Positions 737-15,187 of a stretch of DNA of 15,187 nt are shown one piece after another. Under the pieces are notes generated by a model. It made no database searches. It saw only the letters and a program-made list of their open reading frames with translations, and had not been told where the DNA came from. Made by a program: the position numbers and the translations under genes. The stretch is from UHGV virus genome UHGV-1764962; one strand, 5' to 3'. Every line of letters begins with the position of its first letter. Position 1 is the stretch's first letter. This DNA comes from a virus.

Positions 737-753
737 TTTGCTCTAATAAATTT
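737..753 (+). promoter_or_regulatory. P1 C1-repressor operator-like site (Op53-like) preceding kilA-repL
   Basis: tttgctctaataaattt matches the asymmetric 17-bp P1 C1 operator consensus ATTGCTCTAATAAATTT, as I recall it, at 16/17 positions; sits about 70 bp upstream of the kilA start, where P1 places Op53/P53. Confidence 0.6.
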
Positions 754-771
754 CGCTTTCTAAGTGCAAAG

Positions 772-795
772 AATCACCATTTCGAGCTGGTGATT
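772..795 (+). promoter_or_regulatory. Perfect 8-bp inverted repeat in the kilA 5' leader
   Basis: aatcacca (772-779) and tggtgatt (788-795) are exact reverse complements separated by 8 bp, 28 nt upstream of the kilA ATG. Confidence 0.3.
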
Positions 796-822
796 GAAGG
801 TTGATGCAAATTTGGAGAAAAA

Positions 823-1623: not shown

Positions 1624-1652
1624 CAGACGTAGTAAGAACCACCAGCATTGTA

Positions 1653-2498
1653 ATGCTGGCTAAAGTCACTTTCCTGAGCTGTATAACGATGAGCGATTTT
1701 ACTTTTTCTGGCTATGAATTGGCCTGCTTTGTAACACACTCCGGTCTATCCCGTAGCGCCGGGCATATCCTGTCGCAATGTGCAAATCTCGCGGCAACAA
1801 CCAGTGAATACTTCATTCACAAGCCTCACCGCCTGATCGCGGCAGAAACTGGTTATAGCCAATCAACCGTCGTTCGTGCATTCCGTGAAGCTGTAAACAA
1901 AGGAATCCTGTCTGTAGAGATTGTTATCGGCGATCACCGTGAACGTCGCGCTAACCTGTACCGGTTTACACCATCCTTTTTGGCCTTCGCACAACAAGCC
2001 AAAAATGCGCTGACTGAAAGCAAATTAAAGATCTCTTCAGCGGCAACCAAGGTTAAAGCTGTTATCGCTAAGTCATTGGCTTTATTTAATTTTATATCCA
2101 CACCCCCATGTCAAAATGATACCCCCTCCCCCTGTCAGGATGACGTGGCAATAAAGAATAAGAAGTCACAAGTTAAAAAAACAAAAAGATCAGTTTCCGG
2201 CGGTGCCGGAACGTCCAGACTCAAAAAATTGACTTCATGGATCGCTGAGGCAAAAGCAAAGGCTGACAATCTGCGGTTATCCCAAAAACGCGCTCAAAAA
2301 CATGAGTTCAAGCAGAAAGTAGAGGCGGCTGCGCGGAAATATGCTTACCTGAAGAACAAGCGTTCGCCTGATATTGGCGGGATATCAAACTTCGATAACC
2401 TACCGCATTGCATGACGGTAAACGAAGCTCTTAATGCGGTTTTAGCCAAAAATAAAGATAACGAACAATGGGGTATACCGGCGGGATTCAGAGGGTGA
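1653..2498 (+). CDS. repL: RepL-like lytic replication initiator, 281 aa
   Basis: Immediately downstream of kilA on the same strand; length matches my recollection of P1 RepL. In P1 the lytic origin oriL lies inside repL (established knowledge, not verifiable here). Start could alternatively be the ATG at 1689. Confidence 0.6.
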   Translation: MLAKVTFLSCITMSDFTFSGYELACFVTHSGLSRSAGHILSQCANLAATTSEYFIHKPHRLIAAETGYSQSTVVRAFREAVNKGILSVEIVIGDHRERRANLYRFTPSFLAFAQQAKNALTESKLKISSAATKVKAVIAKSLALFNFISTPPCQNDTPSPCQDDVAIKNKKSQVKKTKRSVSGGAGTSRLKKLTSWIAEAKAKADNLRLSQKRAQKHEFKQKVEAAARKYAYLKNKRSPDIGGISNFDNLPHCMTVNEALNAVLAKNKDNEQWGIPAGFRG

Positions 2499-2719
2499 TA
2501 GATTGCTCTAATCTGGAGTCACCTGGCGTTTTCAGTATGGATTTTCTTTGGCGCGGTCTGGCCATTAGGGATCATGTTTGCTGCAACGTTTCTTCTGATG
2601 TGGGTATTCACCCTTCCAGGTGATTTCTATAGAAAAAAAGCCAGACATTGATACAATCGCTGCGGGTGCTTGAGGCTATCTGCTTCAGGCATTACCCGAA
2701 AAGCAGATAGAAGAAAGCC

Positions 2720-2783
2720 CCAGATAACATTACGCGTCCTGCAAGACGCTTAACATTAATCTGAGGCCATATCTATGCTTAGC
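2720..2783 (-). ncRNA. Predicted Sok-like antisense RNA (extent approximate)
   Basis: Minus-strand promoter-like elements: -35 TTGACC (reverse complement of 2814-2819) and -10 TAATCT (reverse complement of 2790-2795), 18-bp spacer. A transcript from here would be antisense to the mok start codon at 2775-2777, as Sok is in hok/sok. A 6-bp stem-loop lies at 2735-2750 but no clear U-tract terminator. Confidence 0.3.
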
Positions 2784-2981
2784 ATACGTAGATTAGCCTC
2801 TTACCGACCAAAAGGTCAAGGAGAAGCAGGCTATGAAGCAGCAAAAAGCGATGTTAATCGCTCTGATCGTCATCTGTTTAACCGTCATAGTGACGGCACT
2901 GGTAACGAGAAAAGACCTCTGCGAGGTACGAATCCGAACCGGCCAGACGGAGGTCACTGTCTTCACAGCCTACGAATCTGA
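2775..2981 (+). CDS. mok-like overlapping reading frame (modulator of killing) of the hok locus
   Basis: 68-codon frame starting 58 nt upstream of hok and overlapping it in another frame, ending 7 nt before the hok stop. An in-frame peptide just upstream of the hok ATG (PLTDQKVKEKQA) resembles the MokC N-terminal extension as I recall it. Confidence 0.35.
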   Translation: MLSIRRLASYRPKGQGEAGYEAAKSDVNRSDRHLFNRHSDGTGNEKRPLRGTNPNRPDGGHCLHSLRI

Positions 2982-2988
2982 AAGGTAA
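2833..2988 (+). CDS. hok: Hok/Gef-family type I toxin (small membrane protein), 51 aa
   Basis: ATG at 2833 with SD aaggaga 8 nt upstream; translation MKQQKAMLIALIVICLTVIVTALVTRKDLCEVRIRTGQTEVTVFTAYESER has a single TM helix and the two conserved Cys, and is near-identical to HokD/RelF and HokC/Gef as I recall them. Too short to appear in the ORF track. Confidence 0.8.
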   Translation: MKQQKAMLIALIVICLTVIVTALVTRKDLCEVRIRTGQTEVTVFTAYESER

Positions 2989-2995
2989 GAGACCT

Positions 2996-3015
2996 GGCGG
3001 GGAGAGATCCCCGCC
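2996..3015 (+). other. GC-rich stem-loop with GAGA tetraloop in the hok 3' region
   Basis: 8-bp stem ggcgggga (2996-3003) / tccccgcc (3008-3015) with loop gaga, 8 nt after the hok stop; consistent with a 3' fold-back or stabilising structure. Confidence 0.4.
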
Positions 3016-3062
3016 ACTCTTCGTGTGTCAGGTATCCTCAATGCACCCTTTCCTCTCCAAAT

Positions 3063-3090
3063 AAAAAAGCTCCCGAAGGAGCTTTAAAAT
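3063..3090. terminator. Bidirectional rho-independent terminator between the hok locus and the minus-strand structural operon
   Basis: Hairpin aaagctcc (3066-3073) / ggagcttt (3078-3085) with loop cgaa, flanked by an A-run on one side and ttt on the other; on the minus strand it is followed by a U-run, 20 nt after the end of the 3105-3614 CDS. Confidence 0.55.
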
Positions 3091-3104
3091 ACAAGGGATA
3101 ACTC

Positions 3105-3614
3105 TTAATCCCACTCAATCCAGTTGTAGACGATACGAAGTGACGGGCGCACAGCGGCAGTCACATCTTCGGTACTAAAGTCGATTGCATCACTGTAGAT
3201 TTTGCAGTCCAACATTTCAATTGTTGTAGCAGCTTTTGTCACAGCGTTAACCCCGGAAGATTTGGATTCAGGGGTCGCAGCCATCGTGATATCAACATAG
3301 TCCTTCGCCGCAATGCGATCTTTAATGAACTGAAGAATATCGCCTTCGATAGTCTCCACGCACTGGACCTGGATTTCCCCAGAGTTTCGAATTGGACCGT
3401 GCTGGTTGAACTTCACACCATTCGGACCATAGTCCTCCACATCCTCGCGGGTCATTTCAGGAATTTGCGACGTGCGAACCAGTACGCTGATATCTTCATG
3501 GCCTGCAAAAGTGAGCTGGAATTCAGAAGATACCAGTCGTTCGCCTTTGGCCGCGTTGGCAGTATAGCGGCCCTTAATAAATTTACGGTTTCCCTTAGTG
3601 TTATTGTGCCCCAT
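3105..3614 (-). CDS. Hypothetical phage virion/morphogenesis protein, 169 aa (tail tube candidate)
   Basis: Last gene of the minus-strand operon headed by head and sheath genes; SD aaaagga before the ATG; size in the tail-tube range. No family assigned from sequence alone. Confidence 0.4.
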   Translation of the reverse strand: MGHNNTKGNRKFIKGRYTANAAKGERLVSSEFQLTFAGHEDISVLVRTSQIPEMTREDVEDYGPNGVKFNQHGPIRNSGEIQVQCVETIEGDILQFIKDRIAAKDYVDITMAATPESKSSGVNAVTKAATTIEMLDCKIYSDAIDFSTEDVTAAVRPSLRIVYNWIEWD

Positions 3615-3625
3615 ATAAAATCCTT

Positions 3626-4207
3626 TTACTGGAACGCCCGAACAATATCGGAGCTGTTATATATCGAAGAACCGGTCAACTGGAGGTTGACGGTGTTTTT
3701 CAGGAAATGCCCATTGCTGTCCCTGGGCGCATCGAGATCGAAACTTATGTCCTGGATAGCGACATCAATGATGTTGATCCGGCGACCAATGTTTAGCGTC
3801 ACACGCTCCGGGATTCGACCACCAATACTGGCATCTTTAAGTTCCGGGCTAATCATCGCTGACAATGCGGCGATAGCTCCTGAAACCTCCGTGAATGGGT
3901 CAAACAAAGCGATGAAAGTTACTGGCAGCGTGAAAGTCGGCGGTGTTCCCCCTTCCCAAACCATTAAGCTGTTCCAACGGGCAACCGACGTTGTTTCAGT
4001 ACCAACCTGCGCAAAACCACTGAAGGCACCAGCAACAGATCCCATGGACATACCGGTAAACGGCGCTTCCCAATTCTGGGCCATGTTCATTGCCGCTCCC
4101 TGGCTGATATATCCGGTAACCTGGTACTGAGAGTTCGTTAAAGTAACTTTCAGATATGGCGATACACCGTCAGCCTGGCTGTAAACCCCATAAGGTATAG
4201 GTGCCAT
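3626..4207 (-). CDS. Hypothetical phage structural protein, 193 aa (tail tube or baseplate candidate)
   Basis: Tightly packed ORF in the same operon; Gly/Ala/Ser/Thr-rich. Preceded on the minus strand by the hairpin ggccggag/ctccggcc (4219-4236). Confidence 0.4.
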   Translation of the reverse strand: MAPIPYGVYSQADGVSPYLKVTLTNSQYQVTGYISQGAAMNMAQNWEAPFTGMSMGSVAGAFSGFAQVGTETTSVARWNSLMVWEGGTPPTFTLPVTFIALFDPFTEVSGAIAALSAMISPELKDASIGGRIPERVTLNIGRRINIIDVAIQDISFDLDAPRDSNGHFLKNTVNLQLTGSSIYNSSDIVRAFQ

Positions 4208-4242
4208 TCAAGTTAAAGGCCGGAGTTCTCCGGCCTCCTCCT

Positions 4243-5058
4243 TTAGCCGAGGCGCTTACGGCGCAGTTTCATTGACTTTTTGCGGGCCAGTTTTGCCGCG
4301 CCGGTCTGGGCTTTACGACGCGCTTTTTTCAGCGCCGATTTTTGAGCCGCAGTCAGACGTTTTTTACGCAGGCGTTTACGGATGAGTTTGATCTCACCGT
4401 TACGAACAACCTTCTTAAATGCTTCAGTCAGCATTTCATCAGAAGTGCCAGCAACAACAAACGCCGCTTCCAGTTCGTCACGGTCGTCGCTATCTAAACC
4501 AGCGATAGAGGCACCAACATCAGCGGCTGCGTCGTCGTCTTCATCGTCAGCCAGTGCTTCGATCAGGTCATCATCTACACCGCATGCTGCGAGGAAGTCA
4601 GCAACATTTGCCCATGCTTCGTTATAGGCATCGTCCTGTTCTTCTGTAACTTCGGAGTCGTCGTCATCAGAGATACCAGCGATAGCCTGAACGAAACCAT
4701 CAAGGGAGTCGAAAGTCAGATCACCGCTATCAGCCCAGGCGAAAACGGCGTCGGCCGCATCACTCAACGCATTCTGCATAGCACTTCGATTTGCAGCTTC
4801 CAGAATCATCTGGTGCGCCTGTTCGACGGTCCATTCTTTACCGTCTTTCCCTTCCAGGATTTGCTCAGGAGCCGGGGCAGATGGAACGTTATCGTTAGTC
4901 TGTGCCGCCGGTTCCGGATTATTATTAATAACCGGATCTGTTGGCGGTTCGGCGCTTGCTCGGGCAGACTCCATCAGCTGCACAGGATCAGAGTTCAAAG
5001 CGAAACGGGACAGTCCATTCCCCAAAAATGCCCCGGATTGAAAAAAGTTTTTGCTCAT
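4243..5058 (-). CDS. Hypothetical virion-associated protein, 271 aa, strongly acidic body with a highly basic C-terminal tail
   Basis: ATG at 5058 with SD aagggaa, 9 bp after the sheath gene stop. Central region is Asp/Glu-rich (DDDDSEVTEEQDD, ADDEDDDAAAD); the last ~45 residues are Lys/Arg-rich (KRLRKKRLTAAQKSALKKARRKAQTGAAKLARKKSMKLRRKRLG). Confidence 0.5.
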   Translation of the reverse strand: MSKNFFQSGAFLGNGLSRFALNSDPVQLMESARASAEPPTDPVINNNPEPAAQTNDNVPSAPAPEQILEGKDGKEWTVEQAHQMILEAANRSAMQNALSDAADAVFAWADSGDLTFDSLDGFVQAIAGISDDDDSEVTEEQDDAYNEAWANVADFLAACGVDDDLIEALADDEDDDAAADVGASIAGLDSDDRDELEAAFVVAGTSDEMLTEAFKKVVRNGEIKLIRKRLRKKRLTAAQKSALKKARRKAQTGAAKLARKKSMKLRRKRLG

Positions 5059-5067
5059 TGTATTCCC

Positions 5068-6558
5068 TTACTTAATAAGCAGCGGTACGCCCTGGATACG
5101 ACGGGCTACGCCAGTCGGGCAGCAGGCCCAGACTACTTCCCATTTATCGAATTCCGCCTGCGTAACTTTCAGCACATACGGTTCTGTACCGTCAGGGCTA
5201 TGCTTCATCTGGCGGGCTAACTGGACAAAGAAACGGCTGATTGCATTCATCAGGGATGGGACGTGCTGGAAGTGCAGATAGTTATCCTGCGTGCAGCAAG
5301 TTAAAGCATCGTCGATGATCATCTGGCCAGAGGTGCCAACAGATACTTTATTGAGGCGGCCCTTAACCATTGCTTCTTCGTCCGGGGTATCTTCCGGATA
5401 CAGCGGTTGAATTGACGCACGAGCAATGACGGCACGTTCTTCACCAGCCGGTGAGTAATGCCAACCGCCGACATCAGAGTTTTTCTTGACGCCACGAGCT
5501 TTCGCCGCATACGCCGCGCCAGACAGACCGAAGACCACACGGGATTGGGTCCATTTGTCTTTGCAGGAGAACGGGAAGTGATAGACAGCACAGCTTACAT
5601 AATCGGTACCAAGTAAACCGGTATCTTCAACAGCAGAGAGCGCTTCCGTGTACGTCAATGTCGGTTTGACATCAAAGAAGCCATCAATCAGGCGATCAGA
5701 ACAGATATTACCTAACGCGGTGATCGCCGCATTGTCATAGCAACCCAGGCCGAGAACAGCGGTGTACATGTACGGCGCATTGTTCAGCACCTTAACCGCA
5801 CGCAGGTAGGCTTCGGTGGAGATTTTCGACTGATCGCCGTTGGTACCGCCAGTGAACGCCAGTGATTTTTTATTTGTTACTTTCGCGGTCGAAATCAGCT
5901 CTTCATTAACAACCGCGCGCAGATATTTAGAACGGGCTTCCAGAGCCGTAGGCAGATAACACAAGCGGCCCATGTCATCTTTCGCTTCTTCCGCCAAAGA
6001 CACAGTGTGTGTCTCCAGGGTCGTTACCACGCCGAGCGAAGTCGTCTGGGTCAGTTTCAGGAGGAAGCGTTCATTACCTGCGCTGTCCGCTGTTGCCGTT
6101 TCAATGGTTAACTCACGGGTAGGTGAAATACACGGATCACCATCATCAACGTAGATAGCAAAGGCTTCGCCGCTATCAAGTTCAATTTCAGAACCGTATG
6201 GCAACGCACTGTAAGCCGGTTCGCCTGATTCATCGAACATAATAACCGGGAACTTCGCATCATCCGGAACAGCACGGACAACATAACCAGACGTTTGCTG
6301 AATAGCTTCGTATACATGGCGAATTGGTTCGAACTGTGAGCCGGAAGACGGCTTCAGCGGTTCGCCGAGAACATCTTCGTAATTGGACTCAGTAACCGCA
6401 AGAACAGTAAACGGCTTGCCACGCGCAAATACGCCAATACCAGCCCACAAGCTGCTATTTAATGCAACACCTGTAGATAACGTCGCATCGGCATTGATCG
6501 GGCTAACCGCGACGCCGGATGCATTACCTAATGACTGTTGAATTGAATATTGAGACAT
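5068..6558 (-). CDS. Putative contractile tail sheath protein, 496 aa
   Basis: ATG at 6558 with SD agggaaag; sits directly downstream of the head gene, as sheath (gene 22) follows head (gene 23) in the P1 map as I recall it. Assignment by gene order and size, not by search. Confidence 0.5.
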   Translation of the reverse strand: MSQYSIQQSLGNASGVAVSPINADATLSTGVALNSSLWAGIGVFARGKPFTVLAVTESNYEDVLGEPLKPSSGSQFEPIRHVYEAIQQTSGYVVRAVPDDAKFPVIMFDESGEPAYSALPYGSEIELDSGEAFAIYVDDGDPCISPTRELTIETATADSAGNERFLLKLTQTTSLGVVTTLETHTVSLAEEAKDDMGRLCYLPTALEARSKYLRAVVNEELISTAKVTNKKSLAFTGGTNGDQSKISTEAYLRAVKVLNNAPYMYTAVLGLGCYDNAAITALGNICSDRLIDGFFDVKPTLTYTEALSAVEDTGLLGTDYVSCAVYHFPFSCKDKWTQSRVVFGLSGAAYAAKARGVKKNSDVGGWHYSPAGEERAVIARASIQPLYPEDTPDEEAMVKGRLNKVSVGTSGQMIIDDALTCCTQDNYLHFQHVPSLMNAISRFFVQLARQMKHSPDGTEPYVLKVTQAEFDKWEVVWACCPTGVARRIQGVPLLIK

Positions 6559-6573
6559 AACTTTCCCTGTTAT

Positions 6574-6592
6574 GCGCCCCGCACGGGGGCGC
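6574..6592 (-). other. Intercistronic GC stem-loop between head and sheath genes
   Basis: 7-bp all-GC stem gcgcccc (6574-6580) / ggggcgc (6586-6592) with a 5-nt loop; no U-run follows on the minus strand, so more likely a processing or stability element than a terminator. Confidence 0.4.
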
Positions 6593-6618
6593 TATGTTAA
6601 ACGGAGAACTTCCCCTGA

Positions 6619-8325
6619 TTACTCAGAGTCACCGGCATCAATCGTGTCGCCGCTTATAAAGTTAAGCCCGCCTTTTTTGGCCATTGTCAGCGTTACACGA
6701 GTGAAGTAATCAGCGCCGTTGCGTGGGTGCATATCGTTGATAGCCGAACCCCACAGCGTGGTACGGTTGACCAGCGCCGGAGTGGTCGGATGCTGGAACG
6801 GGATAGCCGGGACAGCATCACCAGTCACGAAGCCTGCTTTACCCGGATTTTCATCACGGACGTAGCACAGCACATCCATCGAGCTGAACTGAATGTTCTC
6901 TGTCGTTAAATTCTTACAAATACCAGCAGGTACTTCGTACACTTTCACGTTACCGAACAGGGTACCGATGTAGTGAACATACGGAGTCTGGATATAGTCT
7001 TCGGCTGGCTGGAAGAAATCCTTCGGCAACTGTTTGAAGAAAGATGCTGCATCAGCACCAGCAAACATCCCCATCGCACCAGAAGATTTAACGCGCTCAA
7101 TAATGTCGCGATATACAGTCTGGAATTTGCCACGAATGATGGTTGCCCATACATCAAAGGACTGGTTAACCGGCAAAGCGATGTCAAAGGAGTCGGTCGC
7201 AAGAGTACGCCAGATCATAATGCGAAGACGCAGCATATCCTGTTCATGAGACAGGTATTCCTTCAGGGTGCGGAACTGTAGGGAACCCAGGTCCAGACCA
7301 AATTCACGCTGTGCTTCATACGCCGCCTGTACCGTATGCTCAGCCGCGATAACGAACTGGCTTGGGAACAGGGTGTATTTCTTCATTTCGTGGTTGATCA
7401 GCGGGATCAGCTCAGGAGCGGCTTCAATATTGATTTCCGTCTCAATTGCGATCTCAGTGCCTTTATCCGGCGCTTTGGAGAACGACAGGGCAATCTGACC
7501 AATGTTGTAGTTCAGAGAGCAGGTAACAGTGATTTGCTCACCAGCAGCATTAGTAAACGAGTGAAGTAGGCTGCCGGAACCGTTATCAACAACAGACTTA
7601 ATACGGTTAACGTAGATGTTAGTGCGACCTTTTCGGATTGGTACATTCTGGCCTTCGAAGTCTTCCATCTTGAAGGTTGCGGTTTTGCTGGTGCCATCGG
7701 AGCTTGCCACCAGCACATAGCGGCGACGTAACTGGCTGTACACACCGACGGATTGCATGTCCAGAACATCACCAGCAGCATAAGAACCAAAAGAGGAACC
7801 TGCCACGTTAAAGACTTCATAGATGTCGGACTGGTCACGCGTAACCGGAATGAAGGTACACGCATCAGCGGTAGCTGCCCCCAACTGAACAGGCAGGATC
7901 ATCGCGAGGAATAAAGGCAGACGCATAACACCGTCAGAAACGCTCATCATCTCTGCTGCGACGGATTCCAGCATCGCTTTATTAGTGGCATCCATGCTAT
8001 TGCGGGTGGACTCAATCAGGCAGTTTTCCAGCGTCTGGTGGCAGGAGGCCAGAATTTCCGGACGCGGCATAGATTTATGTGCTGCGGCGTAGTCAGCCAG
8101 TGCACTTGCCCACGCTGTAGCGATTTGAGCGGTGGCATTATCAGAGATACCCGCAAAAACCGGGTCTTTACGTGCAGCTTCAAGGATAGATGCGGCACGC
8201 GCGGCATCATCTTTAATGAATTGGTTATCAGTACCGAACTGCGCAGTGCTTGCCCAGCCAAGCACAGCTTTAGAGCGTTTTGCGATATCTGCAATACGAT
8301 TCTGGTATTCGCGTAAGTTACTCAA
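6619..8325 (-). CDS. Putative major head (capsid) protein precursor with N-terminal scaffold-like domain, about 569 aa
   Basis: Large late-operon ORF; the N-terminal ~120 aa are helical and Ala-rich, consistent with a cleaved delta/scaffold domain. The ORF track start (8346) is a TTG with no SD; the in-frame TTG at 8323-8325 has SD aggaag with a 6-nt spacer, so 8325 is the more likely start. Assigned by size and position next to the partition locus. Confidence 0.5.
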   Translation of the reverse strand: MSNLREYQNRIADIAKRSKAVLGWASTAQFGTDNQFIKDDAARAASILEAARKDPVFAGISDNATAQIATAWASALADYAAAHKSMPRPEILASCHQTLENCLIESTRNSMDATNKAMLESVAAEMMSVSDGVMRLPLFLAMILPVQLGAATADACTFIPVTRDQSDIYEVFNVAGSSFGSYAAGDVLDMQSVGVYSQLRRRYVLVASSDGTSKTATFKMEDFEGQNVPIRKGRTNIYVNRIKSVVDNGSGSLLHSFTNAAGEQITVTCSLNYNIGQIALSFSKAPDKGTEIAIETEINIEAAPELIPLINHEMKKYTLFPSQFVIAAEHTVQAAYEAQREFGLDLGSLQFRTLKEYLSHEQDMLRLRIMIWRTLATDSFDIALPVNQSFDVWATIIRGKFQTVYRDIIERVKSSGAMGMFAGADAASFFKQLPKDFFQPAEDYIQTPYVHYIGTLFGNVKVYEVPAGICKNLTTENIQFSSMDVLCYVRDENPGKAGFVTGDAVPAIPFQHPTTPALVNRTTLWGSAINDMHPRNGADYFTRVTLTMAKKGGLNFISGDTIDAGDSE

Positions 8326-8376
8326 TTTACTCTTCCTTAAACACAAGGCACTTGTGTGAATCCCTTTTCGGAAGAG

Positions 8377-8404
8377 ATTTTATTGAAAGTCACTTGTTGA
8401 CTTT
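8377..8404 (-). promoter_or_regulatory. Candidate late promoter for the head/sheath operon (-10 TAAAAT plus upstream inverted repeat)
   Basis: On the minus strand: inverted repeat AAAGTCA-N5-TGACTTT (8386-8404) followed 3 nt later by TAAAAT (reverse complement of 8377-8382). No -35 hexamer, an architecture resembling activator-dependent phage late promoters. Confidence 0.3.
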
Positions 8405-8418
8405 CTCGTGACAAGAAA

Positions 8419-8443
8419 TTTTTTTTTTTCGGGAGGAGGGGGG
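8419..8443. repeat. Homopolymeric tracts: T11 followed by a G-rich run (gggaggagggggg)
   Basis: Eleven consecutive T at 8419-8429, then a G-rich run through 8443 including six consecutive G at 8438-8443; between parS and the head-gene promoter region. Confidence 0.9.
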
Positions 8444-8460
8444 AAAAGGTAAAATCCAAG

Positions 8461-8543
8461 GTGAAATCGTGGCGATTTCACCTTGAAATTTTAGAAGGAT
8501 TTACTTTAAAAACAGTAATTTAATGGTGAAATTTGAATGGCGA
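8461..8543 (-). other. parS: parS partition site (P1-type centromere with box A heptamers, box B hexamers and a central AT-rich IHF-type region)
   Basis: Read on the minus strand: TCGCCA (box B) - ATTTCAC (box A) - AT-rich core - ATTTCAA - GTGAAAT - TCGCCA - ATTTCAC. Plus-strand positions: gtgaaat 8461-8467, tggcga 8470-8475, atttcac 8475-8481, tggcga 8538-8543. Lies 5 bp downstream of the parB stop, as in P1. Confidence 0.75.
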
Positions 8544-8547
8544 AAGT

Positions 8548-9549
8548 TTAAGGCTTCGGCTTTTTATCGAGGCTCTTTCTAAGGATATGCCCAATCATCC
8601 TGTCGAGTTCTTCCTGTAACTCTTTTGAGAGTCGATTAAACTCATAAGAAAATGCACGGCCTTTCACGCGCTTCCTTGCAAAGCGATCCTTGTCCTCAAA
8701 TTTCCATAATTCAGTAACTACGGACTTATCTTTAGAACCTTTATCCGTGAGTAGTGAGGCTTCCTTTGTTATCAAGCGCAGGATTTTATTTTTAACTTCA
8801 TCTTCGGCCATTTCTTCAATGGATAAGATGTCGTTTATTTCCGGGGATATGTTTTGAATAAGCTGATCAAACTCTAAATTCTTGTTCCCCATTTCGTCGC
8901 CAACAGCACAAAGCGTTTTGTAGTCCGAAAAGGTTAATTCCGACTGCACAGGGAAAAGGGCGACTAATTCTTCCGGAGCACTCGCTGCCTGGAGAGCACG
9001 CGTGACCTTCGCCTGAGACAGCCCTTCTTTGGCTGCAATATCCTTCTGACTCATCCCATCATTTTTCATTCGCATCAAACGCAGACCTATTTCTCGAATG
9101 CTGTGCTGCAATGCTGTCTGAACGTCTTTCGCTAAATTTTGCGCTTCCTGAACGCTGATCTCCTGGTCCGTGACTAAAACCCGCAACCCTACGTTCTCTA
9201 AGATGGCAGAAGCTCGACGCCGGGAACCATCCAAAATTTCAATTTTCCCTGTAGCCCGTCTAACACCTATTGCAGGGTAAAATTGCTGATGCTTAATAGT
9301 GCTTCGGATACTTTTTAATGATTTTGGCGTAAGAGATGCCTGGTCACGCCCGTTGTTATGCTGATCAACAAAGGTATCGCTTTCTACCTGGTTCGGAGGT
9401 ATTACCTCTTCAATAAATATGGCCTGGCGACCAGTTGATAACTTGAATACCTGCTCGACTCGATCGCCAGAGGCTGAAGAACTATCAAATCCGCTTAATA
9501 TTGAAGGATTAAGGGTTCGCCCAATTGTTGGTCTGTTTTTCTTTGACAT
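8548..9549 (-). CDS. parB: Partition protein ParB (type Ia centromere-binding protein), 333 aa
   Basis: 333-aa ORF directly downstream of parA and upstream of parS; length equals my recollection of P1 ParB. Confidence 0.9.
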   Translation of the reverse strand: MSKKNRPTIGRTLNPSILSGFDSSSASGDRVEQVFKLSTGRQAIFIEEVIPPNQVESDTFVDQHNNGRDQASLTPKSLKSIRSTIKHQQFYPAIGVRRATGKIEILDGSRRRASAILENVGLRVLVTDQEISVQEAQNLAKDVQTALQHSIREIGLRLMRMKNDGMSQKDIAAKEGLSQAKVTRALQAASAPEELVALFPVQSELTFSDYKTLCAVGDEMGNKNLEFDQLIQNISPEINDILSIEEMAEDEVKNKILRLITKEASLLTDKGSKDKSVVTELWKFEDKDRFARKRVKGRAFSYEFNRLSKELQEELDRMIGHILRKSLDKKPKP

Positions 9550-9565
9550 GGGGGTTTCTTACTCC

Positions 9566-10762
9566 TCAGTTAGATCTGATAAATTCAATACGGTCGAAAA
9601 CTGCTTTAGCAAAATCTTCCGCGGCAATTCGCGCGTTCTTCAATGCATCAGCACTACCAACATACGTTGCCGGGTTAGCTGAAATAACAGTGTCAAAAGA
9701 CTCGCCGCAGCGTTCAAAACCGTCAAGGCGAGGGAGGACGACATCAAGCATATCCCCACCGAACACTTCTTTAGCCAGGCTATGGCAATACTTATGGTCT
9801 GCCTTGTTACTCAACTTGGACATAAAACCAATGTTAGTCGCAAGCTGGCACTCGCAGCCTTCATCCGAAATGAGTTTCACCAACTCAGGAAGGCGGGCAA
9901 CGTATTTAAGCGATGAGTGGAAATCAACCGTTGCAGGCGGCAAAGGTGTAAACAGTATATTGGCCGAGGCCAAAGCATTTTTCAGGAAGGCGTCAAGGTG
10001 AGGACCACTATCAACGAGGATAAAGTCATAATCGCTCTTCAGCTTATCAATCACATTTTCTTTCAGGACAGCATGGATGTTCTGACCCGGTAGATGCTCA
10101 TTGCACAGCTCTCTCCAATCGGATGCAATAAAGGCATCGTCAATCGACGCAGGCATAACGTCAACCCCAGGTACAACAGAAGGAACAATAAACTCCTCTA
10201 ACAGCTCTTCACGGCTTACATTCTGCAACATAGCCTGTGCAGATGTTGCGTTTACGATACCAATAGAGTGTTTATGGCTTAAAAACATCGTTGCTGAAGA
10301 TTGCGGATCAAGGTCAATAACCAGAATCCTTAAATCTTCCATCAGAAGATGAGGGTGAGCACGCATTGCATGCGCCAGAGAAACCGTCGATACAGTTTTT
10401 GACACACCGCCTTTAAGATTGGAGATGAAAATCACATACGCTTCGCTGTAGCGATCCCGGTATTTTGGCACTCCGCGATGTTCATATATGTCAATGATGT
10501 TCTGAATTGACATCGCATATTTCATTGAAGAGCCAGCAGGGCGTTTATCGAAAACATAACCCTTTTCTTCCATTTCACTCACGGCATAGTCAACGTTCGC
10601 TCGAGTCAGTAGAGGCAATTTTGCCAGTGCCGCTTTCGCATAGACCTGGTAAAACTCGTTCGCGTGTAGCTCATCCTTTTGCAACTGTACTTGTTCAGTC
10701 AGAACATTGAGCATTCTGTTTGCTCTTTGAGCAACCTTGTGAAGCTGGCTGGAATCACTCAT
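9566..10762 (-). CDS. parA: Partition ATPase ParA (type Ia, with N-terminal regulatory/HTH extension), 398 aa
   Basis: Deviant Walker A motif NLKGGVSKT; 398 aa as for P1 ParA; SD aaggatgg before the ATG; 16-bp gap to parB. Confidence 0.9.
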   Translation of the reverse strand: MSDSSQLHKVAQRANRMLNVLTEQVQLQKDELHANEFYQVYAKAALAKLPLLTRANVDYAVSEMEEKGYVFDKRPAGSSMKYAMSIQNIIDIYEHRGVPKYRDRYSEAYVIFISNLKGGVSKTVSTVSLAHAMRAHPHLLMEDLRILVIDLDPQSSATMFLSHKHSIGIVNATSAQAMLQNVSREELLEEFIVPSVVPGVDVMPASIDDAFIASDWRELCNEHLPGQNIHAVLKENVIDKLKSDYDFILVDSGPHLDAFLKNALASANILFTPLPPATVDFHSSLKYVARLPELVKLISDEGCECQLATNIGFMSKLSNKADHKYCHSLAKEVFGGDMLDVVLPRLDGFERCGESFDTVISANPATYVGSADALKNARIAAEDFAKAVFDRIEFIRSN

Positions 10763-10779
10763 CGAAAGCCATCCTTTAT

Positions 10780-10870
10780 GCTGTATTTTTGAATTTAATT
10801 AAAAATGCTGCATAAAATAATAATGTATGCACAGATGCTTGTACATAGCATTCTCTGCATGTTTGGTTCA
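10780..10870 (-). promoter_or_regulatory. parA promoter/operator region (AT-rich with imperfect palindromes)
   Basis: AT-rich intergenic region directly upstream of parA containing the palindrome atgc-t-gcat (10805-10813) and a recurring tgcat motif. In P1 ParA autoregulates from an inverted-repeat operator here (established knowledge); exact site not resolved. Confidence 0.35.
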
Positions 10871-10902
10871 TTTTGCACGATTGAGAGTTACAAGGAGGGC
10901 AC

Positions 10903-10923
10903 AAAAAAGCCCCGTTCAGGGGC
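10903..10923 (-). terminator. Rho-independent terminator after the T5orf172-like gene
   Basis: Stem gcccc (10909-10913) / ggggc (10919-10923), loop gttca; on the minus strand it is followed by a six-U run (plus-strand aaaaaa 10903-10908), 8 nt after the CDS stop. Confidence 0.6.
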
Positions 10924-10930
10924 ATCAGTG

Positions 10931-11740
10931 TTATTTGCTAAGAGCAGCGAATAATCGTTCGAAATCGATAGTATCTATAGCACGCGTAAGCGCCGGAAGT
11001 TCAGCCTCAAAGTACCCGTGTCGATCGTAAAAGAAGGGACCGAAGAGCGAGGCATGTTGGATTCTACTTCGCCCCAGCCCGGACACACAGTTAAGCCCAT
11101 TACCGGCTAAAAGGCTAAAAAACTTCTCTGGATTATCGTGGTAAAGCTGGGAATCAATGGTGGCGGTTAACTCTTCCATAGGGAAGCACACCCGCCTTGT
11201 CTCCCAGGGATATTTAGTCCGAAGCATAAACATTGCTTTCAGCAATTCACATTGAGCGCGGATCGCGTCCGGTTCATAGCCAGATATGGAGACATAAGCC
11301 ACGTCCCTCATTCCTGCGTCATCTTTGAAAGTCACGATAGAAGTAACATCCAGCTCTTTTTCGAAAGAGCGGGCAGCATCTACTGGACGCTGAAGTAAAT
11401 CATTCGACTTAATGCGCTCGAGAATCCCTCCCCACATCTCATTTAGATATTCGATATGAGCCAAAACCTTATCAAGACACTCTCGTGTAAACCATTCAGT
11501 ATGCCCGCCACCAGCGCTTTTCTCCCACGGCGCATTCCAGGGGAAAAAGGTTGCGTGTAAAGCCCGCTCAAGATTAACTATTGCCAAACGCGTACCACGA
11601 TAGACCCGTGAAAGCGCAAAATCGGGACTCACTTGTAGCCCTTTAAACCGTGCCAATGGACCACATGAAATGCCGATTTTAAAAGTATCTCCGTTCTCCG
11701 GCACCAGAACGTAGAGGTAGTGTTGTTTCTCTTCTTGCAT
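10931..11740 (-). CDS. Hypothetical protein with N-terminal T5orf172/GIY-YIG-like putative nuclease domain, 269 aa (UpfA-position gene)
   Basis: N-terminal ~100 aa carry the T5orf172 pattern: YLYVL ... FKIGIS ... LERALHATF ... GGGHTEWF ... LDKVLAHIEYL. Located between the incA-like iterons and parA. Weak SD. Confidence 0.55.
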   Translation of the reverse strand: MQEEKQHYLYVLVPENGDTFKIGISCGPLARFKGLQVSPDFALSRVYRGTRLAIVNLERALHATFFPWNAPWEKSAGGGHTEWFTRECLDKVLAHIEYLNEMWGGILERIKSNDLLQRPVDAARSFEKELDVTSIVTFKDDAGMRDVAYVSISGYEPDAIRAQCELLKAMFMLRTKYPWETRRVCFPMEELTATIDSQLYHDNPEKFFSLLAGNGLNCVSGLGRSRIQHASLFGPFFYDRHGYFEAELPALTRAIDTIDFERLFAALSK

Positions 11741-11773
11741 ATCAATACCACTGCTTGATGAGAACCGCGCAAA

Positions 11774-12030
11774 TGTTGACTATGCGCGAAAGTTAATGTG
11801 AATAGTTGACTATGCGCGATGTGACTACAGTCAAAAGTTGACTGTAGTCGATTTAACTCCACCAAAGATCGACTATGTAAGATATTGTCGGGAGAAACGT
11901 TGACTATACGCGATGAAATGACCCTAAAAGCCATCTCAATAGCGACTTGCAGAATATTGACGCCAGCAAAAATCCACCAGCGTCAACGAATGTCGCCTAT
12001 AGTCAACTTCTCGCTATCGCATATAGTCAA
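11774..12030. repeat. Downstream iteron array (incA-like copy-control locus), mixed orientation
   Basis: Iteron-like 15-16-mers: gttgactatgcgcga at 11774-11788 and 11804-11818, gttgactgtagtcga at 11836-11850, gttgactatacgcga at 11898-11912 (all inverse orientation relative to the origin iterons); forward copies tcgcctatagtcaac at 11992-12006 and atcgcatatagtcaat at 12015-12030. A perfect 10-bp inverted pair gactacagtc / gactgtagtc lies at 11822-11848. Confidence 0.75.
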
Positions 12031-12032
12031 TA

Positions 12033-12917
12033 TTATGGATTGCGCTTATGGATCTGGAAGCCGATTTTCCTGCCGTTTTTTATCTCTGAAAATTTAAGAT
12101 ATTCAATAGCTTCCAAATCTTTCATGGCTTTTCTGATAACGCTATTTTGCACGCTAACGGATGATTTGAGATTAAGCCTTGCTCTAAGGCGCTCAATGCT
12201 GACAGGTGCCGGGTTGGCGGGTAGAGCCTCAAAGAATGTATACAGTACCTTGGCCGTCTCTTTGCGCCCGAGCTTATCCAGCATCTTCAGCTTCAGGATT
12301 CGCTTATAGTCAACATAGTAAAGTTCAGATAGCTGTTTCTGCGGCTGGATCTCGATAACATCAAGCTCGGTATTCAGGCTGCTATATGCCAACAAGTTGA
12401 CGTTAATGTTATTGAGATGACCTTTTGCCGCCGGGAAGCGGAATTTGACAACTGTCTGCTGAATGCGTGTCAGAGAGTCATCAATACTTTTACGGAACGC
12501 CTTTGAAAGGCGCTTACGTGGATAGCCGCATCGATCGGCAAACTCGGAGAATGGCAGGGTGATTATGCCGTCATCATCAGGTGCGTAGTCAAACAACGCG
12601 GAGGTTATGCCCACCCACACCTTAAAATCAGTATCCATATCCAGGCGTGGGCCATGAATTTCAATTCCCTCATAGCCTTCCTGCTCAACAATTTTAAGGC
12701 TTGATAGTTCTTCGGTTGCGTTCGTTGTGTTTGTAGTAACTGACGATCCGCGACGTAGTGCCACATTGGTAGATTTTAAGGTTGGCACAAACACACCTAA
12801 GCGCAACAAAGCGATAGGTTGTATAGTGCTGTTGTTATTGGGCTTCAGGCTGTGGATTTCTCCTGTATTTCCTGCAACTTCTTCAACGCTAAGGAAGCCT
12901 TTACTTTCTTCCGGCAT
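12033..12917 (-). CDS. repA: Iteron-binding plasmid replication initiator RepA, 294 aa
   Basis: ORF flanked by iteron arrays on both sides; ATG at 12917 with SD ggaga; upstream array overlaps the promoter position, as in autoregulated RepA genes. Confidence 0.8.
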   Translation of the reverse strand: MPEESKGFLSVEEVAGNTGEIHSLKPNNNSTIQPIALLRLGVFVPTLKSTNVALRRGSSVTTNTTNATEELSSLKIVEQEGYEGIEIHGPRLDMDTDFKVWVGITSALFDYAPDDDGIITLPFSEFADRCGYPRKRLSKAFRKSIDDSLTRIQQTVVKFRFPAAKGHLNNINVNLLAYSSLNTELDVIEIQPQKQLSELYYVDYKRILKLKMLDKLGRKETAKVLYTFFEALPANPAPVSIERLRARLNLKSSVSVQNSVIRKAMKDLEAIEYLKFSEIKNGRKIGFQIHKRNP

Positions 12918-12997
12918 CGTGGTTTCTCCATGTGTGGCGCGGCCTGGCGTTAATTTAGATGACTGTTATCAACAGCTGTGAATATTCAGGCTCTAAA

Positions 12998-13098
12998 ATC
13001 GCGTACAGTCAACGTTTCTGTCGCGTATAGTCAACAATAAATCGCGTGCAGTCAACATAAAATCGCACACAGTCAACATAAAATCGCGTATAGTCAAT
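12998..13098 (-). repeat. Origin iterons (incC-like): five direct repeats with about 21-bp periodicity
   Basis: atcgcgtacagtcaac (12998-13013), tcgcgtatagtcaac (13021-13035), atcgcgtgcagtcaac (13041-13056), atcgcacacagtcaac (13062-13077), atcgcgtatagtcaat (13083-13098); centre-to-centre spacing 21-22 bp. Confidence 0.85.
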
Positions 13099-13101
13099 GT
13101 T

Positions 13102-13209
13102 GATCCCGTTTCAGGCCATGAACGGCGCGGCTTACAGCGATCCGGGATCTTCTTTGGATCTTCCTAGGTTCTCTTTGGGATCTGTTTATTGGATCTATGC
13201 TGTGGATAA
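13102..13209. other. Plasmid replication origin core: GATC-rich AT region plus consensus DnaA box
   Basis: Six GATC sites (13102, 13139, 13146, 13157, 13179, 13192), four of them inside repeated GGATCT motifs; perfect DnaA box TGTGGATAA (reverse complement TTATCCACA) at 13201-13209. Organisation matches the DnaA box / GATC heptamer / five-iteron layout known for P1 oriR. Confidence 0.6.
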
Positions 13210-13218
13210 GTTGAATAA

Positions 13219-13241
13219 ACCGGCCAACATAGCCGGTTGGA
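13219..13241 (-). terminator. Terminator-like hairpin downstream of the 130-aa gene
   Basis: Stem aaccggc (13219-13225) / gccggtt (13233-13239), loop caacata; on the minus strand followed by tattcaactt (weak U-run). Confidence 0.35.
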
Positions 13242-13251
13242 AGGAAGGGTA

Positions 13252-13644
13252 TTATTCTACGCTTTCGATAAGAAGACCATGTTCATAACATTTAAGCTCA
13301 TCGCCTTCGTACAGGAATTGGTATCCAATACCACCATATTCAGGCACATTAGGGAATAACTCATCACTTACCGAAGAACAAATCACACCAATGCAGCGAT
13401 CAACGCCTTCTCGTTCTTCAGTGCTGAAAAAATCCTCTTCGGTAAGAACATGAGTACATTGCTCATCAGCATAGGTCGGAAATACATGCTCGATGCAATC
13501 CGGGTGTTTTAAACCAAGCTGATCGGCAAGCTCGAAAGCATGACGGTATTGTTCAGATCCTGGCTTGCCAACAGTGATGTGCTCAATTTTGTAGATTGAA
13601 GTCGCTTTGTTGATAGTTTGCTTTACTGTTACTTTATCAGACAT
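13252..13644 (-). CDS. Hypothetical acidic Cys/His-rich small protein, 130 aa
   Basis: ATG at 13644 with SD aaggga; Asp/Glu-rich with several Cys and His; no recognisable family. Confidence 0.5.
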   Translation of the reverse strand: MSDKVTVKQTINKATSIYKIEHITVGKPGSEQYRHAFELADQLGLKHPDCIEHVFPTYADEQCTHVLTEEDFFSTEEREGVDRCIGVICSSVSDELFPNVPEYGGIGYQFLYEGDELKCYEHGLLIESVE

Positions 13645-13655
13645 AAAAATCCCTT

Positions 13656-13988
13656 TTAGTTACCGCTGATAGCGCGGTTGTAATCATTAACGTTGCGATT
13701 CTTCCTGTTAATCCCCATCAGCATCGTTTCTGTATCAAGGATATAGGCTGGCAGATCATCAAAATATTCACTGCTAAACTCTGGCATCCTGCACATAAAT
13801 GCACTTTTGGGGGCAGGGTGGTTAACCTTTGTCGGCGTCGGCGTTAAATTCGCTGATCGACTGCCGGAGCAACCGCTGAGTGTCAGCAGGAATGCGCTGG
13901 CGAACATTACCCGCCGCAACCAGTTGTTTCTGAACTTCAGCTTTTCGTTCCATTTGCCTGTCAGCATATTTGGCTTGTTCTGATTCAT
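13656..13988 (-). CDS. Outer-membrane lipoprotein, o-spanin (Rz1)-like, 110 aa precursor
   Basis: Signal peptide with lipobox LTLSGC (Cys 40); ATG at 13988 with SD aggaag; the gene starts inside the 3' end of the upstream i-spanin-like gene in another frame and extends beyond it. Confidence 0.5.
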   Translation of the reverse strand: MNQNKPNMLTGKWNEKLKFRNNWLRRVMFASAFLLTLSGCSGSRSANLTPTPTKVNHPAPKSAFMCRMPEFSSEYFDDLPAYILDTETMLMGINRKNRNVNDYNRAISGN

Positions 13989-14244
13989 TTTTCACTTCCT
14001 GGCTGTGAAAATGTTGCTCTGCTTTGTTCATCGTCTCAATGGTCTGGTTAAGATCCATTATTGACTTATCACGTTCCTTAACAGCCTGATCAAGACTGCC
14101 AATTTTCTCCATAGCTTGCTTTAGCTGATGACGTTCCCATGCAAACCCAGCACCAACAAGTGCGCAAATCAGAACAAGAACACCAGTAGCAGCAAGTTTC
14201 TCCTTCAAAGACAAAGCTGTTTTTAACGTAGAAAAGAATGACAT
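13822..14244 (-). CDS. Inner-membrane spanin (Rz)-like protein, about 140 aa
   Basis: Probable start is the ATG at 14242-14244 (MSFFSTLK...) with strong SD aggagg and 5-nt spacer; the ORF-track start at 14271 is TTG. N-terminal TM segment LAATGVLVLICALVGAGFAW followed by a charged, coiled-coil-prone periplasmic domain. Confidence 0.5.
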   Translation of the reverse strand: MSFFSTLKTALSLKEKLAATGVLVLICALVGAGFAWERHQLKQAMEKIGSLDQAVKERDKSIMDLNQTIETMNKAEQHFHSQEVKNESEQAKYADRQMERKAEVQKQLVAAGNVRQRIPADTQRLLRQSISEFNADADKG

Positions 14245-14283
14245 GTCTTCCTCCTGAAGAAAAATTATCAATGAAGTCCTTTG

Positions 14284-14946
14284 TTACTGTGCCGCTTTGT
14301 TTAATTCATCAAGAACAGAATCAGGAACCAAAGCGGCAACTGCGCTGGCTGTGCTGACCTTATTTGCTGATGCTTCCGCAAGCGCGGTACCGATAGCATG
14401 GTTATAAGCAGTTATGGCTACGTTGGCGCTTTCATTCGCTCGTTCATACTGCTGTTGTAACGCAGTTGTGGGCGCTGTTGTCTGGTTGAAAACAACCCCA
14501 AACTGTTCAGTTGCTACTTTCAGAGATTCAATTTGCTCTTCTGTTAGTGCTGGTGGGGGAGTGGCAGTGCCGCCGCCTGAACCAGAGCCTGACGAGCTTC
14601 CTGAGCCAGTGTTAAGGGTCTGGTTAATCTCCCCCATAGCAGCGACTAAACTTGATGTATTAAGCGCGTTAACAGCGTCCTCAAGCGATTTAGTAATATT
14701 CACATCACCAATGGCAATAGAGATCGGCAGTTCTGAAACTTCTCGCTCATTAGCACGGCAGTAAACATCCCAACCAATATCGAGTTGAAGCAGCATTGAC
14801 AGATCTGCATAACCAGCCAACAGGTCCGCGTGCTTAGTTGCCAGTTCTCCAATGTTCGTTAAGCCGGTTGTGGTTGTTCTTATCGTTGAAACATAGCTGG
14901 TAATAGTGTCGGGATAGACAATTGTATCCAGAATTAATCCGGTCAA
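14284..14946 (-). CDS. Hypothetical protein, at least 220 aa, probably the C-terminal portion of a gene interrupted by the IS5-family element
   Basis: Minus-strand frame stays open from 14284 through the IS boundary at 14976 to a stop inside the IS (15019-15021); the ORF-track start is a TTG without SD. Contains a Thr-rich segment and a Gly/Ser linker (TGSGSSSGSGSGGGTATPPP). Confidence 0.4.
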   Translation of the reverse strand: MTGLILDTIVYPDTITSYVSTIRTTTTGLTNIGELATKHADLLAGYADLSMLLQLDIGWDVYCRANEREVSELPISIAIGDVNITKSLEDAVNALNTSSLVAAMGEINQTLNTGSGSSSGSGSGGGTATPPPALTEEQIESLKVATEQFGVVFNQTTAPTTALQQQYERANESANVAITAYNHAIGTALAEASANKVSTASAVAALVPDSVLDELNKAAQ

Positions 14947-14975
14947 TTCTTCTGCAAGCAGTTTTGCTGTGTTAG

Positions 14976-15187
14976 GGAAGGTGCGAATAAGCGGGGAAAT
15001 TCTTCTCGGCTGACTCAGTCATTTCATTTCTTCATGTTTGAGCCGATTTTTTCTCCCGTAAATGCCTTGAATCAGCCTATTTAGGCTATTTTTTCCACCA
15101 TTTCTGGCGTTATTTCCGGTTTTTACTGAGATCTCTCCCACTGACGTATCATTTGGTCCACCCGAAGCAGGTTGGCCAGGGTGAATA
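14976..15187. mobile_element. IS5-family insertion sequence, terminal 212 bp (truncated by the window/contig end)
   Basis: Begins with the 16-bp IS5 terminal inverted repeat GGAAGGTGCGAATAAG (14976-14991), preceded by TTAG (14972-14975), which fits the IS5 YTAR target. The first ~110 bp match my recollection of the IS5 end, with patchy divergence further in. Confidence 0.8.

What the first reader, a model, noticed from the sequence alone, without database searches (positions are those of the whole stretch)
14947..15187. IS5-family insertion disrupting or displacing the last gene; contig ends inside the IS
The IS5 terminal repeat begins at 14976 directly after a TTAG target. The minus-strand reading frame of the adjacent gene continues without a stop across the junction into IS sequence, so the gene's native 5' portion is probably separated by the insertion. 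Because the assembly breaks in the IS, the other half and the full IS copy should lie on another contig.
Basis: partly seen in the sequence, partly recalled or inferred. Interest (0 to 1): 0.5.

Follow-up and report, generated by a model that had tools for sequence, protein, structure and literature searches.

The report
IS5-family insertion truncating P1 upfB
A common jumping gene of the IS5 family has landed in upfB, a non-essential tail-tip gene of a P1-like phage-plasmid, and the short-read assembly stops inside that repeated element, which is an ordinary and well-understood situation.

Summary
An IS5-family terminal inverted repeat starts at 14976, directly after TTAG (14972-14975), which fits the YTAR target of IS5. 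The 212 bases to the window end match annotated IS5/ISKpn26-type elements at 99.5-100% (E 4e-105). They include the last 20 codons of the transposase gene on the minus strand.

The interrupted gene is upfB of a P1-like phage-plasmid. Its native CDS is 789 nt by PGAP and 846 nt in the P1 reference. The insertion removes the first 97 nt, the ribosome-binding site, and the link to upfC. Of 573 PLSDB plasmids carrying this stretch, 554 have it uninterrupted.

The same junction recurs in many independent assemblies, including two resolved records, so it is inherited and not an assembly artefact. In three other resolved relatives the far IS end abuts unrelated DNA with no target duplication. Where the 5' part lies in this genome cannot be decided.

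UpfB is a baseplate "tripod" protein that is dispensable for plaque formation. Verdict: real, ordinary, already known in kind.

The parts
14284..14975 (-). upfB' : the retained 3' 692 nt (nt 98-789 of the 789-nt CDS) of P1-type upfB. It lacks its start codon, ribosome-binding site and first 32 codons + 1 nt.
   Evidence: 99.6% identical to uninterrupted plasmids over 13600-14975. P1 records annotate the matching gene as upfB. Full-length homologue is L001 1368-2156, 262 aa. Full-length protein matches phrog_1559 at E 2.3e-136.
14972..14975 (.). TTAG target tetranucleotide (YTAR) abutting the IS end. It is present once in the uninterrupted sequence.
   Evidence: The YTAR target-duplication motif of IS5 is documented in PMC5009759. 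The duplicated copy (CTAA on the coding strand) is seen at the reciprocal junction in L019.
14976..15187 (-). Terminal 212 nt of an IS5-family element, at the end that lies 3' of the transposase gene. The transposase therefore reads toward upfB'. The first 16 nt (14976-14991) are the terminal inverted repeat. Nt 1-109 are identical to IS5 of K-12, and nt 110-160 are of ISKpn26 type.
15123..15187 (-). 3' end of the IS transposase gene: the last 20 codons (FTLANLLRVDQMIRQWERSQ) plus the stop at 15123-15125. The rest runs off the window.
   Evidence: Identical to the C-terminus of the 326-aa transposase of L009, which carries PF01609 DDE_Tnp_1 and PF05598.
14944..15021 (-). Hybrid 5' extension of the truncated reading frame. 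There is an in-frame TGA at 15019-15021 inside the IS, and the only candidate start is TTG at 14944-14946. No ATG or GTG lies upstream and no good Shine-Dalgarno sequence is visible.
   Evidence: No promoter-like site on the minus strand of the IS end.

Best explanation
An IS5-family insertion sequence transposed into the YTAR site TTAG, 94-97 nt into upfB of a P1-like phage-plasmid with a pO111-type replicon. From 212 nt the element cannot be assigned to IS5 or ISKpn26. It is oriented with its transposase gene reading toward the remaining part of upfB.

The insertion cuts off the first 32 codons, the start codon and the ribosome-binding site, and breaks the link to the upstream gene upfC. upfB is therefore almost certainly inactivated. 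UpfB is a baseplate 'tripod' protein on the tail spike tip that is not needed for plaque formation, so the insertion is tolerated. It has been inherited by a widespread lineage of these plasmids.

The sequence stops 212 nt into the IS because the source is a short-read (Nextera) assembly and the IS is a multi-copy repeat.

Shown: the junction, the target site, the truncation, and recurrence in other assemblies. Inferred: loss of function, the cause of the contig break, and inheritance as opposed to repeated insertion.
For: IS end and target site. Transposase C-terminus.

Native gene length and start. The site is uninterrupted in 554 of 573 PLSDB records.

The window is collinear with hundreds of P1-like plasmids from 54 to 14975 and with P1 and P7 phage records.

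The identical junction occurs in L004 (complete plasmid NZ_CP086387.1), L008, L009 (CP056412.1) and metagenome contigs L010-L012. The exact 220-aa truncated product is indexed in 45 blocks of the collection.

The reciprocal junction, upfB 5' 97 nt + CTAA + the opposite IS end, with upfC-uhr-hrdC-dmt-ban backbone behind it, occurs in L019. This shows a simple transposition with a 4-bp duplication at this very site.

Contigs L010, L011 and L012 also end inside the IS, at 287, 246 and 148 nt. A Nextera adapter occupies window 1-30.

UpfB role and dispensability: PMC12810830 and PMC10695390.
Against: Only one IS end is in the window, so neither the full element nor the target duplication can be shown for this genome. 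I infer that the window end is a true contig end. Loss of UpfB function is inferred, and a product starting at the TTG (220 aa) cannot be excluded.
Confidence: 0.95

Rival explanations
1. Simple insertion still intact in this genome. The other IS end is followed by the duplicated TTAG and then the 97-nt upfB 5' part, upfC and the rest of the P1 backbone, sitting on another contig.
For: Exactly this reciprocal junction exists in GCA_964051835.1 at the end of a 96.5-kb P1-like contig (L019). The window still carries 15 kb of phage structural and replication backbone, so the element is not obviously decayed.
Against: The closest relative with the far side resolved is L009, 99.98% identical over 8.5 kb and 212/212 in the IS. 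There an autotransporter gene from ordinary plasmids lies on the far side, with no duplication.
Confidence: 0.45
2. The IS now marks a rearrangement boundary. After the original insertion, recombination between IS5-family copies, or an IS-mediated deletion, replaced the far side. The upfB 5' part, and possibly upfC onward, is then absent or not adjacent to this IS.
For: L004, L008 and L009 all have the same junction, yet non-upfB DNA and no CTAA/TTAG duplication at the other IS end. The complete plasmid NZ_CP086387.1 lacks the upfB 5' part and the next 4 kb of backbone entirely. The IS bodies behind the shared junction differ (93-98% identity) and are mosaics of IS5-type and ISKpn26-type segments, as expected from recombination between copies.
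Against: L019 shows the unrearranged state exists. The resolved cases are a biased sample of three.
Confidence: 0.45
3. Assembly chimera: the upfB-IS junction is a misjoin made by the assembler and no IS sits there in the real molecule.
For: The contig carries an untrimmed adapter at its other end, so read cleaning was imperfect.
Against: The junction falls exactly at the first base of the IS terminal repeat and next to a YTAR site. No k-mer is shared between the native continuation and the IS that could cause a misjoin. The identical junction is present in independent assemblies, including records deposited as a complete plasmid and a complete chromosome.
Confidence: 0.02
4. No disruption: the gene naturally starts at the TTG at 14946 and the IS merely sits upstream of it.
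For: A gene caller does call the 220-aa TTG-started product on such contigs.
Against: Homologues are 262 aa (PGAP) or 281 aa (P1 reference), and their sequence is continuous across the site in 97% of plasmids. The residues just upstream of the TTG (NTAKLLAEE) are part of the native protein.
Confidence: 0.01

Closest known systems
IS5 of E. coli K-12 (IS5A, insH1; NC_000913.3 273955-275149)
   Same: Same terminal repeat. The first 109 nt are identical, and identity is 92.9% over the 212 nt. It uses the same YTAR target preference and a 1195-bp DDE-transposase element (PMC5009759).
   Different: Nt 110-160 of the window fragment diverge from IS5 (13 mismatches and one gap) and match ISKpn26-type copies. 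The transposase C-terminus is ...LLRVDQMIRQWERSQ, whereas I recall ...LFRADQMIRQWERSH for InsH (for the window; the InsH sequence is from my memory).
ISKpn26 (IS5 family), as annotated by PGAP in NZ_CP086387.1 and NZ_CP099352.1
   Same: The complete IS that matches the window fragment 212/212 (L009) is 98.7% identical to an ISKpn26-annotated copy. An ISKpn26 sits at exactly this upfB site, in this orientation, in NZ_CP086387.1.
   Different: The NZ_CP086387.1 copy differs from the window from IS base 18 onward, at 85.9% over the fragment. Another full-length IS that matches the fragment at 99.5% (L003) is 97.8% identical to IS5. The body of the window's IS therefore cannot be named from 212 nt.
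Phage P1 reference genome, described as P1 mod749::IS5 c1.100 in PMC6906374
   Same: An IS5 insertion in a dispensable gene of the same phage family, tolerated by a viable phage-plasmid.
   Different: A different gene is hit (mod, not upfB). There the whole IS and both flanks are known.
IS-bounded cargo insertions next to the P1 replicon, e.g. JL22 (upfA interrupted by an IS1380/IS5-blaCTX-M-55 segment) and the repA-upfA variable region
   Same: Same neighbourhood of the P1 backbone, which is recognised as variable and IS-prone (PMC9603915; PMC11117986 lists upfA and upfB as insertion or fusion locations).
   Different: No cargo gene is visible in the window; only the IS end is.

Membership tests
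IS5 family insertion sequence (IS5 group) | Characteristic terminal inverted repeat GGAAGGTGCGAA(T/C)AAG | tested here: met
   Present at 14976-14991. It is identical to that end of IS5 K-12 and of the full-length copies in L003, L005 and L009.
IS5 family insertion sequence (IS5 group) | Encodes a DDE transposase (PF01609 with PF05598) | tested here: inconclusive
   Only the last 20 codons lie in the window. They are identical to the C-terminus of the 326-aa L009 transposase, which hits PF01609 (2.2e-35) and PF05598.
IS5 family insertion sequence (IS5 group) | Insertion at a YTAR target with a 4-bp direct duplication | tested here: inconclusive
   The target motif is met (TTAG at 14972-14975). 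The duplication cannot be seen because the other end is outside the window. It is seen at the same site in relative L019.
IS5 family insertion sequence (IS5 group) | Complete element of about 1.2 kb with both ends | not testable with these tools
   The window ends 212 nt into the element. Full-length relatives are 1195-1196 bp.
P1 UpfB (phrog_1559; baseplate tripod protein) | Sequence homology over the whole protein to P1 UpfB | tested here: met
   The retained part lies within the stretch 13600-14975, which matches P1 records annotating upfB there at 95-98% DNA identity. The full-length plasmid homologue hits phrog_1559 at 2.3e-136. The N-terminal 32 residues are missing here.
P1 UpfB (phrog_1559; baseplate tripod protein) | Synteny: upfC - upfB - ppfA/mlp - upfA - oriR/repA on one strand | tested here: met
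   The downstream half (ppfA/mlp, upfA, repA) is present in order. The upstream partner upfC is cut away by the IS.
P1-like phage-plasmid (Punavirus-type) | P1 backbone modules: kilA-repL lytic replicon, tail and baseplate genes, parAB, repA | tested here: met
   Window 54-14975 is collinear at about 98.5% with complete 90-100-kb plasmids, and with P1 and P7. Pfam Phage_P1_RepL, KilA-N/ANT and ParB are called on identical genes in related contigs. Whether the source element is a complete, inducible phage cannot be told from 15 kb.

The most novel reading that the evidence does not exclude
The CTAA/TTAG at nt 94-97 of upfB may be a preferred IS5-family landing site, hit repeatedly and independently in P1-like phage-plasmids. 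It is seen in both orientations and with IS5-type and ISKpn26-type elements. The resident IS could then act as the recombination portal through which these elements swap the adjoining backbone (upfC, the dmt operon and beyond) for plasmid cargo, a step from phage-plasmid toward plain plasmid.
Probability: 0.2. Interest if true: 0.3.

Novelty: already known. Interest (0 to 1): 0.1.

Why it matters
It matters little beyond annotation. upfB in this element should be marked as a pseudogene interrupted by an IS5-family element. The contig should be flagged as bounded by repeats, and its first 30 bases are adapter.

It is a small data point for how insertion sequences erode and remodel P1-like phage-plasmids next to their replicon. 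Loss of the UpfB tripod could in principle affect infection of some hosts, but the laboratory data say the gene is dispensable.

Tried and rejected
Exact-pattern scans for the window junction found nothing in viral contigs, metagenome contigs or genome contigs. Scans for the predicted reciprocal junction found nothing in viral contigs or metagenome contigs. Because the known junction was absent too, those collections simply lack this lineage and the negatives say nothing.

I reached it instead through a homology search.

My first attempt to fetch IS5 from K-12 used a wrong coordinate and returned IS186. I corrected this.

A promoter scan found no outward-facing promoter-like site in the IS end, so I dropped the idea that the IS drives expression of the truncated gene.

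I considered calling the site a hotspot. upfB has 13 YTAR sites and this one was used at least twice independently. However, the search was designed around this site, so the ascertainment is biased and I do not claim it.

I could not link the window to a particular source assembly.

Full report
**What is in the sequence**

On the plus strand the window reads ...GCTGTGTTAG|GGAAGGTGCGAATAAGCGGGG.... TTAG lies at 14972-14975 and the repeat starts at 14976. The 212 bases from 14976 to the window end match more than 5000 plasmid records annotated with IS5-like transposases. The best matches are 99.5% identical with E 4e-105.

The first 16 bases are the terminal inverted repeat of IS5-type elements, which delimits complete 1195-1196-bp copies in loci L003, L004, L005, L008 and L009. 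On the minus strand, 15123-15185 encodes FTLANLLRVDQMIRQWERSQ followed by a stop. This is identical to the C-terminus of the 326-aa DDE transposase of L009. The window therefore holds the end of the IS that lies 3' of the transposase gene, and the transposase reads toward the junction. TTAG fits the YTAR target-duplication motif documented for IS5 (PMC5009759).

**Which IS**

The fragment is a mosaic:
- Bases 1-109 are identical to IS5 of K-12 (L007).
- Bases 110-160 differ from IS5 at 13 positions plus one gap, and match ISKpn26-type copies.
- Overall identity is 92.9% to IS5 K-12 and 85.9% to the ISKpn26 copy of NZ_CP086387.1.

Two full-length elements share the fragment. L009 matches 212/212 and is 98.7% identical to an ISKpn26-annotated copy and 93.6% to IS5. 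L003 matches 211/212 and is 97.8% identical to IS5. The mosaic is therefore natural and not an assembly product. The body of this copy cannot be named from 212 bases, so "IS5 family, IS5/ISKpn26 type" is as far as the evidence goes.

**The interrupted gene**

Bases 54-14975 are collinear at about 98.5% with complete 90-100-kb E. coli plasmids of the P1 type. They carry KilA/antirepressor genes, repL, tail genes, parB, parA, a 294-aa RepA, upfA, mlp/ppfA and upfB. The last 1.4 kb matches phage P1 and P7 records, where the gene is annotated as upfB.

In uninterrupted plasmids the CDS is 789 nt (262 aa), and the sequence after TTAG continues CACTGTTTCGTGCC... for another 97 nt to the ATG. The curated P1 record starts the gene 57 nt further upstream (846 nt) and places upfC immediately upstream on the same strand. 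A 400-bp probe centred on the site is covered at 80% or more in 554 of 573 matching PLSDB records. The window thus retains nt 98-789 of upfB (14284-14975). It has lost the start codon, the ribosome-binding site and the link to upfC.

The truncated frame stays open for 14 IS-derived codons up to a TGA at 15019-15021. The only candidate start is the TTG at 14944-14946, with no convincing Shine-Dalgarno sequence. No promoter-like site faces outward from the IS end. Functional inactivation is the likely outcome, but this is an inference.

**What UpfB does**

A 2026 cryo-EM study assigns UpfB as a trimeric "tripod" attached to the tail spike tip (gp5/UpfC) of the P1 baseplate (PMC12810830). CRISPRi knock-down and earlier knock-outs score upfB, and also upfC, as non-essential for plaque formation (PMC10695390). 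Pfam has no family for it; PHROGs has phrog_1559, of unknown function. A dispensable gene is the kind of place where an IS insertion can persist.

**Not an artefact, not private**

The identical junction is present in the following records:
- the complete plasmid NZ_CP086387.1 (L004);
- a 30-kb contig of GCA_050032615.1 (L008);
- CP056412.1 (L009);
- gut-metagenome contigs L010-L012.

The exact 220-aa TTG-started product is indexed in 45 blocks of the large assembly collection, mostly on 10-20-kb contigs. L009 and L012 are 99.98% identical to the window over 8.5 kb and 10.8 kb respectively. L010, L011 and L012 also stop inside the IS, at 287, 246 and 148 nt. The window itself begins with 30 bases of Nextera adapter followed by the 23-bp terminal repeat of IS1.

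Together these results indicate a short-read contig bounded by two repeated elements. The IS insertion is inherited by a widespread plasmid lineage. Only one of 5,426 complete E. coli genomes in RefSeq carries the junction.

**The other side of the IS**

I predicted the reciprocal hybrid ORF (UpfB residues 1-32, then read-through of CTAA and the opposite IS end) and searched for it. A 42-aa protein of exactly that form lies at the end of a 96.5-kb contig of GCA_964051835.1. Its DNA reads ...AACAGTG CTAA GGAAGGTGCGAACAAGTCCCTG..., with upfC, uhr, hrdC, dmt and ban behind it (L019). A simple transposition with the 4-bp duplication at this very site therefore exists.

Three relatives point the other way. 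In L004, L008 and L009 the far IS end abuts unrelated DNA with no duplicated tetranucleotide. That DNA is an IS3-family transposase gene followed by a MobH relaxase gene in L004, lactate-utilisation genes in L008, and a plasmid autotransporter gene in L009. The complete plasmid NZ_CP086387.1 contains no copy of the upfB 5' part or of the next 4 kb of backbone. I rate the two states about equally likely here.

**Recurrent hits on the gene**

The same homology search turned up other disrupted 5' ends:
- An ISKpn26 end at the same CTAA but in the opposite orientation, which must be an independent event (P0002/L020).
- A product whose tail GTVANSRW is what I recall the IS26 terminal repeat (GGCACTGTTGCAAA) would encode, joined after residue 23 (P0007; the IS26 sequence is from my memory).
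- Further truncations (P0003 and P0006).

L013 has an IS1 end abutting upfB about 20 nt inside the present junction. Nearby, L005 has an ISKpn26 306 nt beyond the site, and in L002 the native sequence ends 631 nt beyond it, next to an IS6-family element.

The literature already describes the repA-upfA neighbourhood as a variable, IS-prone region of P1-like elements. It lists upfA and upfB among insertion or fusion points (PMC9603915, PMC11117986, PMC6906374). upfB has 13 YTAR sites. Because my search was built around this one site, I do not claim a hotspot.

**Verdict**

The feature is an ordinary IS5-family insertion in a dispensable phage-plasmid gene, seen at the repeat-induced end of a short-read contig. 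The kind of event is already known, so interest is low.

Noticed in passing
window 1-30: The first 30 bases, CGTGGGCTCGGAGATGTGTATAAGAGACAG, equal the Nextera read-2 adapter sequence as I recall it, minus its first 4 bases. This is untrimmed adapter at the contig start, not biological sequence.
   Followed up: yes
window 31-53 (and 54-659): ATCAATAAGTTGGAGTCATTACC matches the terminal 23 bp of annotated IS1 copies (100% to IS1 ends in L014). It abuts a KilAC/ANT antirepressor gene that is truncated 168 nt into its CDS relative to L018. The contig is therefore bracketed by IS1 on the left and the IS5-family element on the right. The 173-aa truncated ANT product is indexed in 341 blocks, many on roughly 15-kb contigs.
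   Followed up: partly
window 5068-6558, around 5187-5195: This tail-module gene is 496 aa here and in L011 and L012, but 529 aa in L008, L010 and L018. The difference is a 99-bp in-frame indel with a 9-bp alignment overlap, which suggests a repeat-mediated length variant.
   Followed up: no
window 10931-12917: The replicon is the 294-aa RepA type with a GIY-YIG/T5orf172 gene between repA and parA. This is the pO111-like alternative to the IncY RepA (286 aa) of P1 itself, by length and annotation compared with PMC5786510 and PMC9603915.
   Followed up: partly
window 13656-14271: mlp, with the lipobox-like motif LLTLSGC, lies embedded out of frame in the 3' part of ppfA. Several phage records annotate the pair as Rz/Rz1-like spanins. 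They sit directly downstream of the truncated upfB. In the P1 record their predicted promoters P1ppfA and P2ppfA lie inside the part of upfB that corresponds to what the window retains.
   Followed up: no
L009 (CP056412.1 713181-733843): A P1-like segment 99.98% identical to the window sits in a record deposited as a 5.12-Mb chromosome. It has an extra IS66 insertion in ppfA (at about window 14041-14052) and is flanked by IS66, IS1 and an autotransporter gene. It may be an IS-mediated integration or cointegrate.
   Followed up: partly
L020 1607-1810; P0007; L013 1-60: These are independent disruptions of the same gene's 5' end. L020 has ISKpn26 at the same CTAA in the opposite orientation. P0007 has a tail (GTVANSRW) that I recall matching an IS26 terminal repeat, joined after residue 23. 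L013 has an IS1 end about 20 nt inside the present junction.
   Followed up: partly
L014-L016 (NZ_CP086387.1): This IncY plasmid with the same upfB junction is a heavily remodelled P1 derivative. It keeps rep/par, c1 and phd-doc. It also carries a heat-resistance island (clpK and others), the ttr tetrathionate reductase genes, a MobH relaxase and many IS copies.
   Followed up: no
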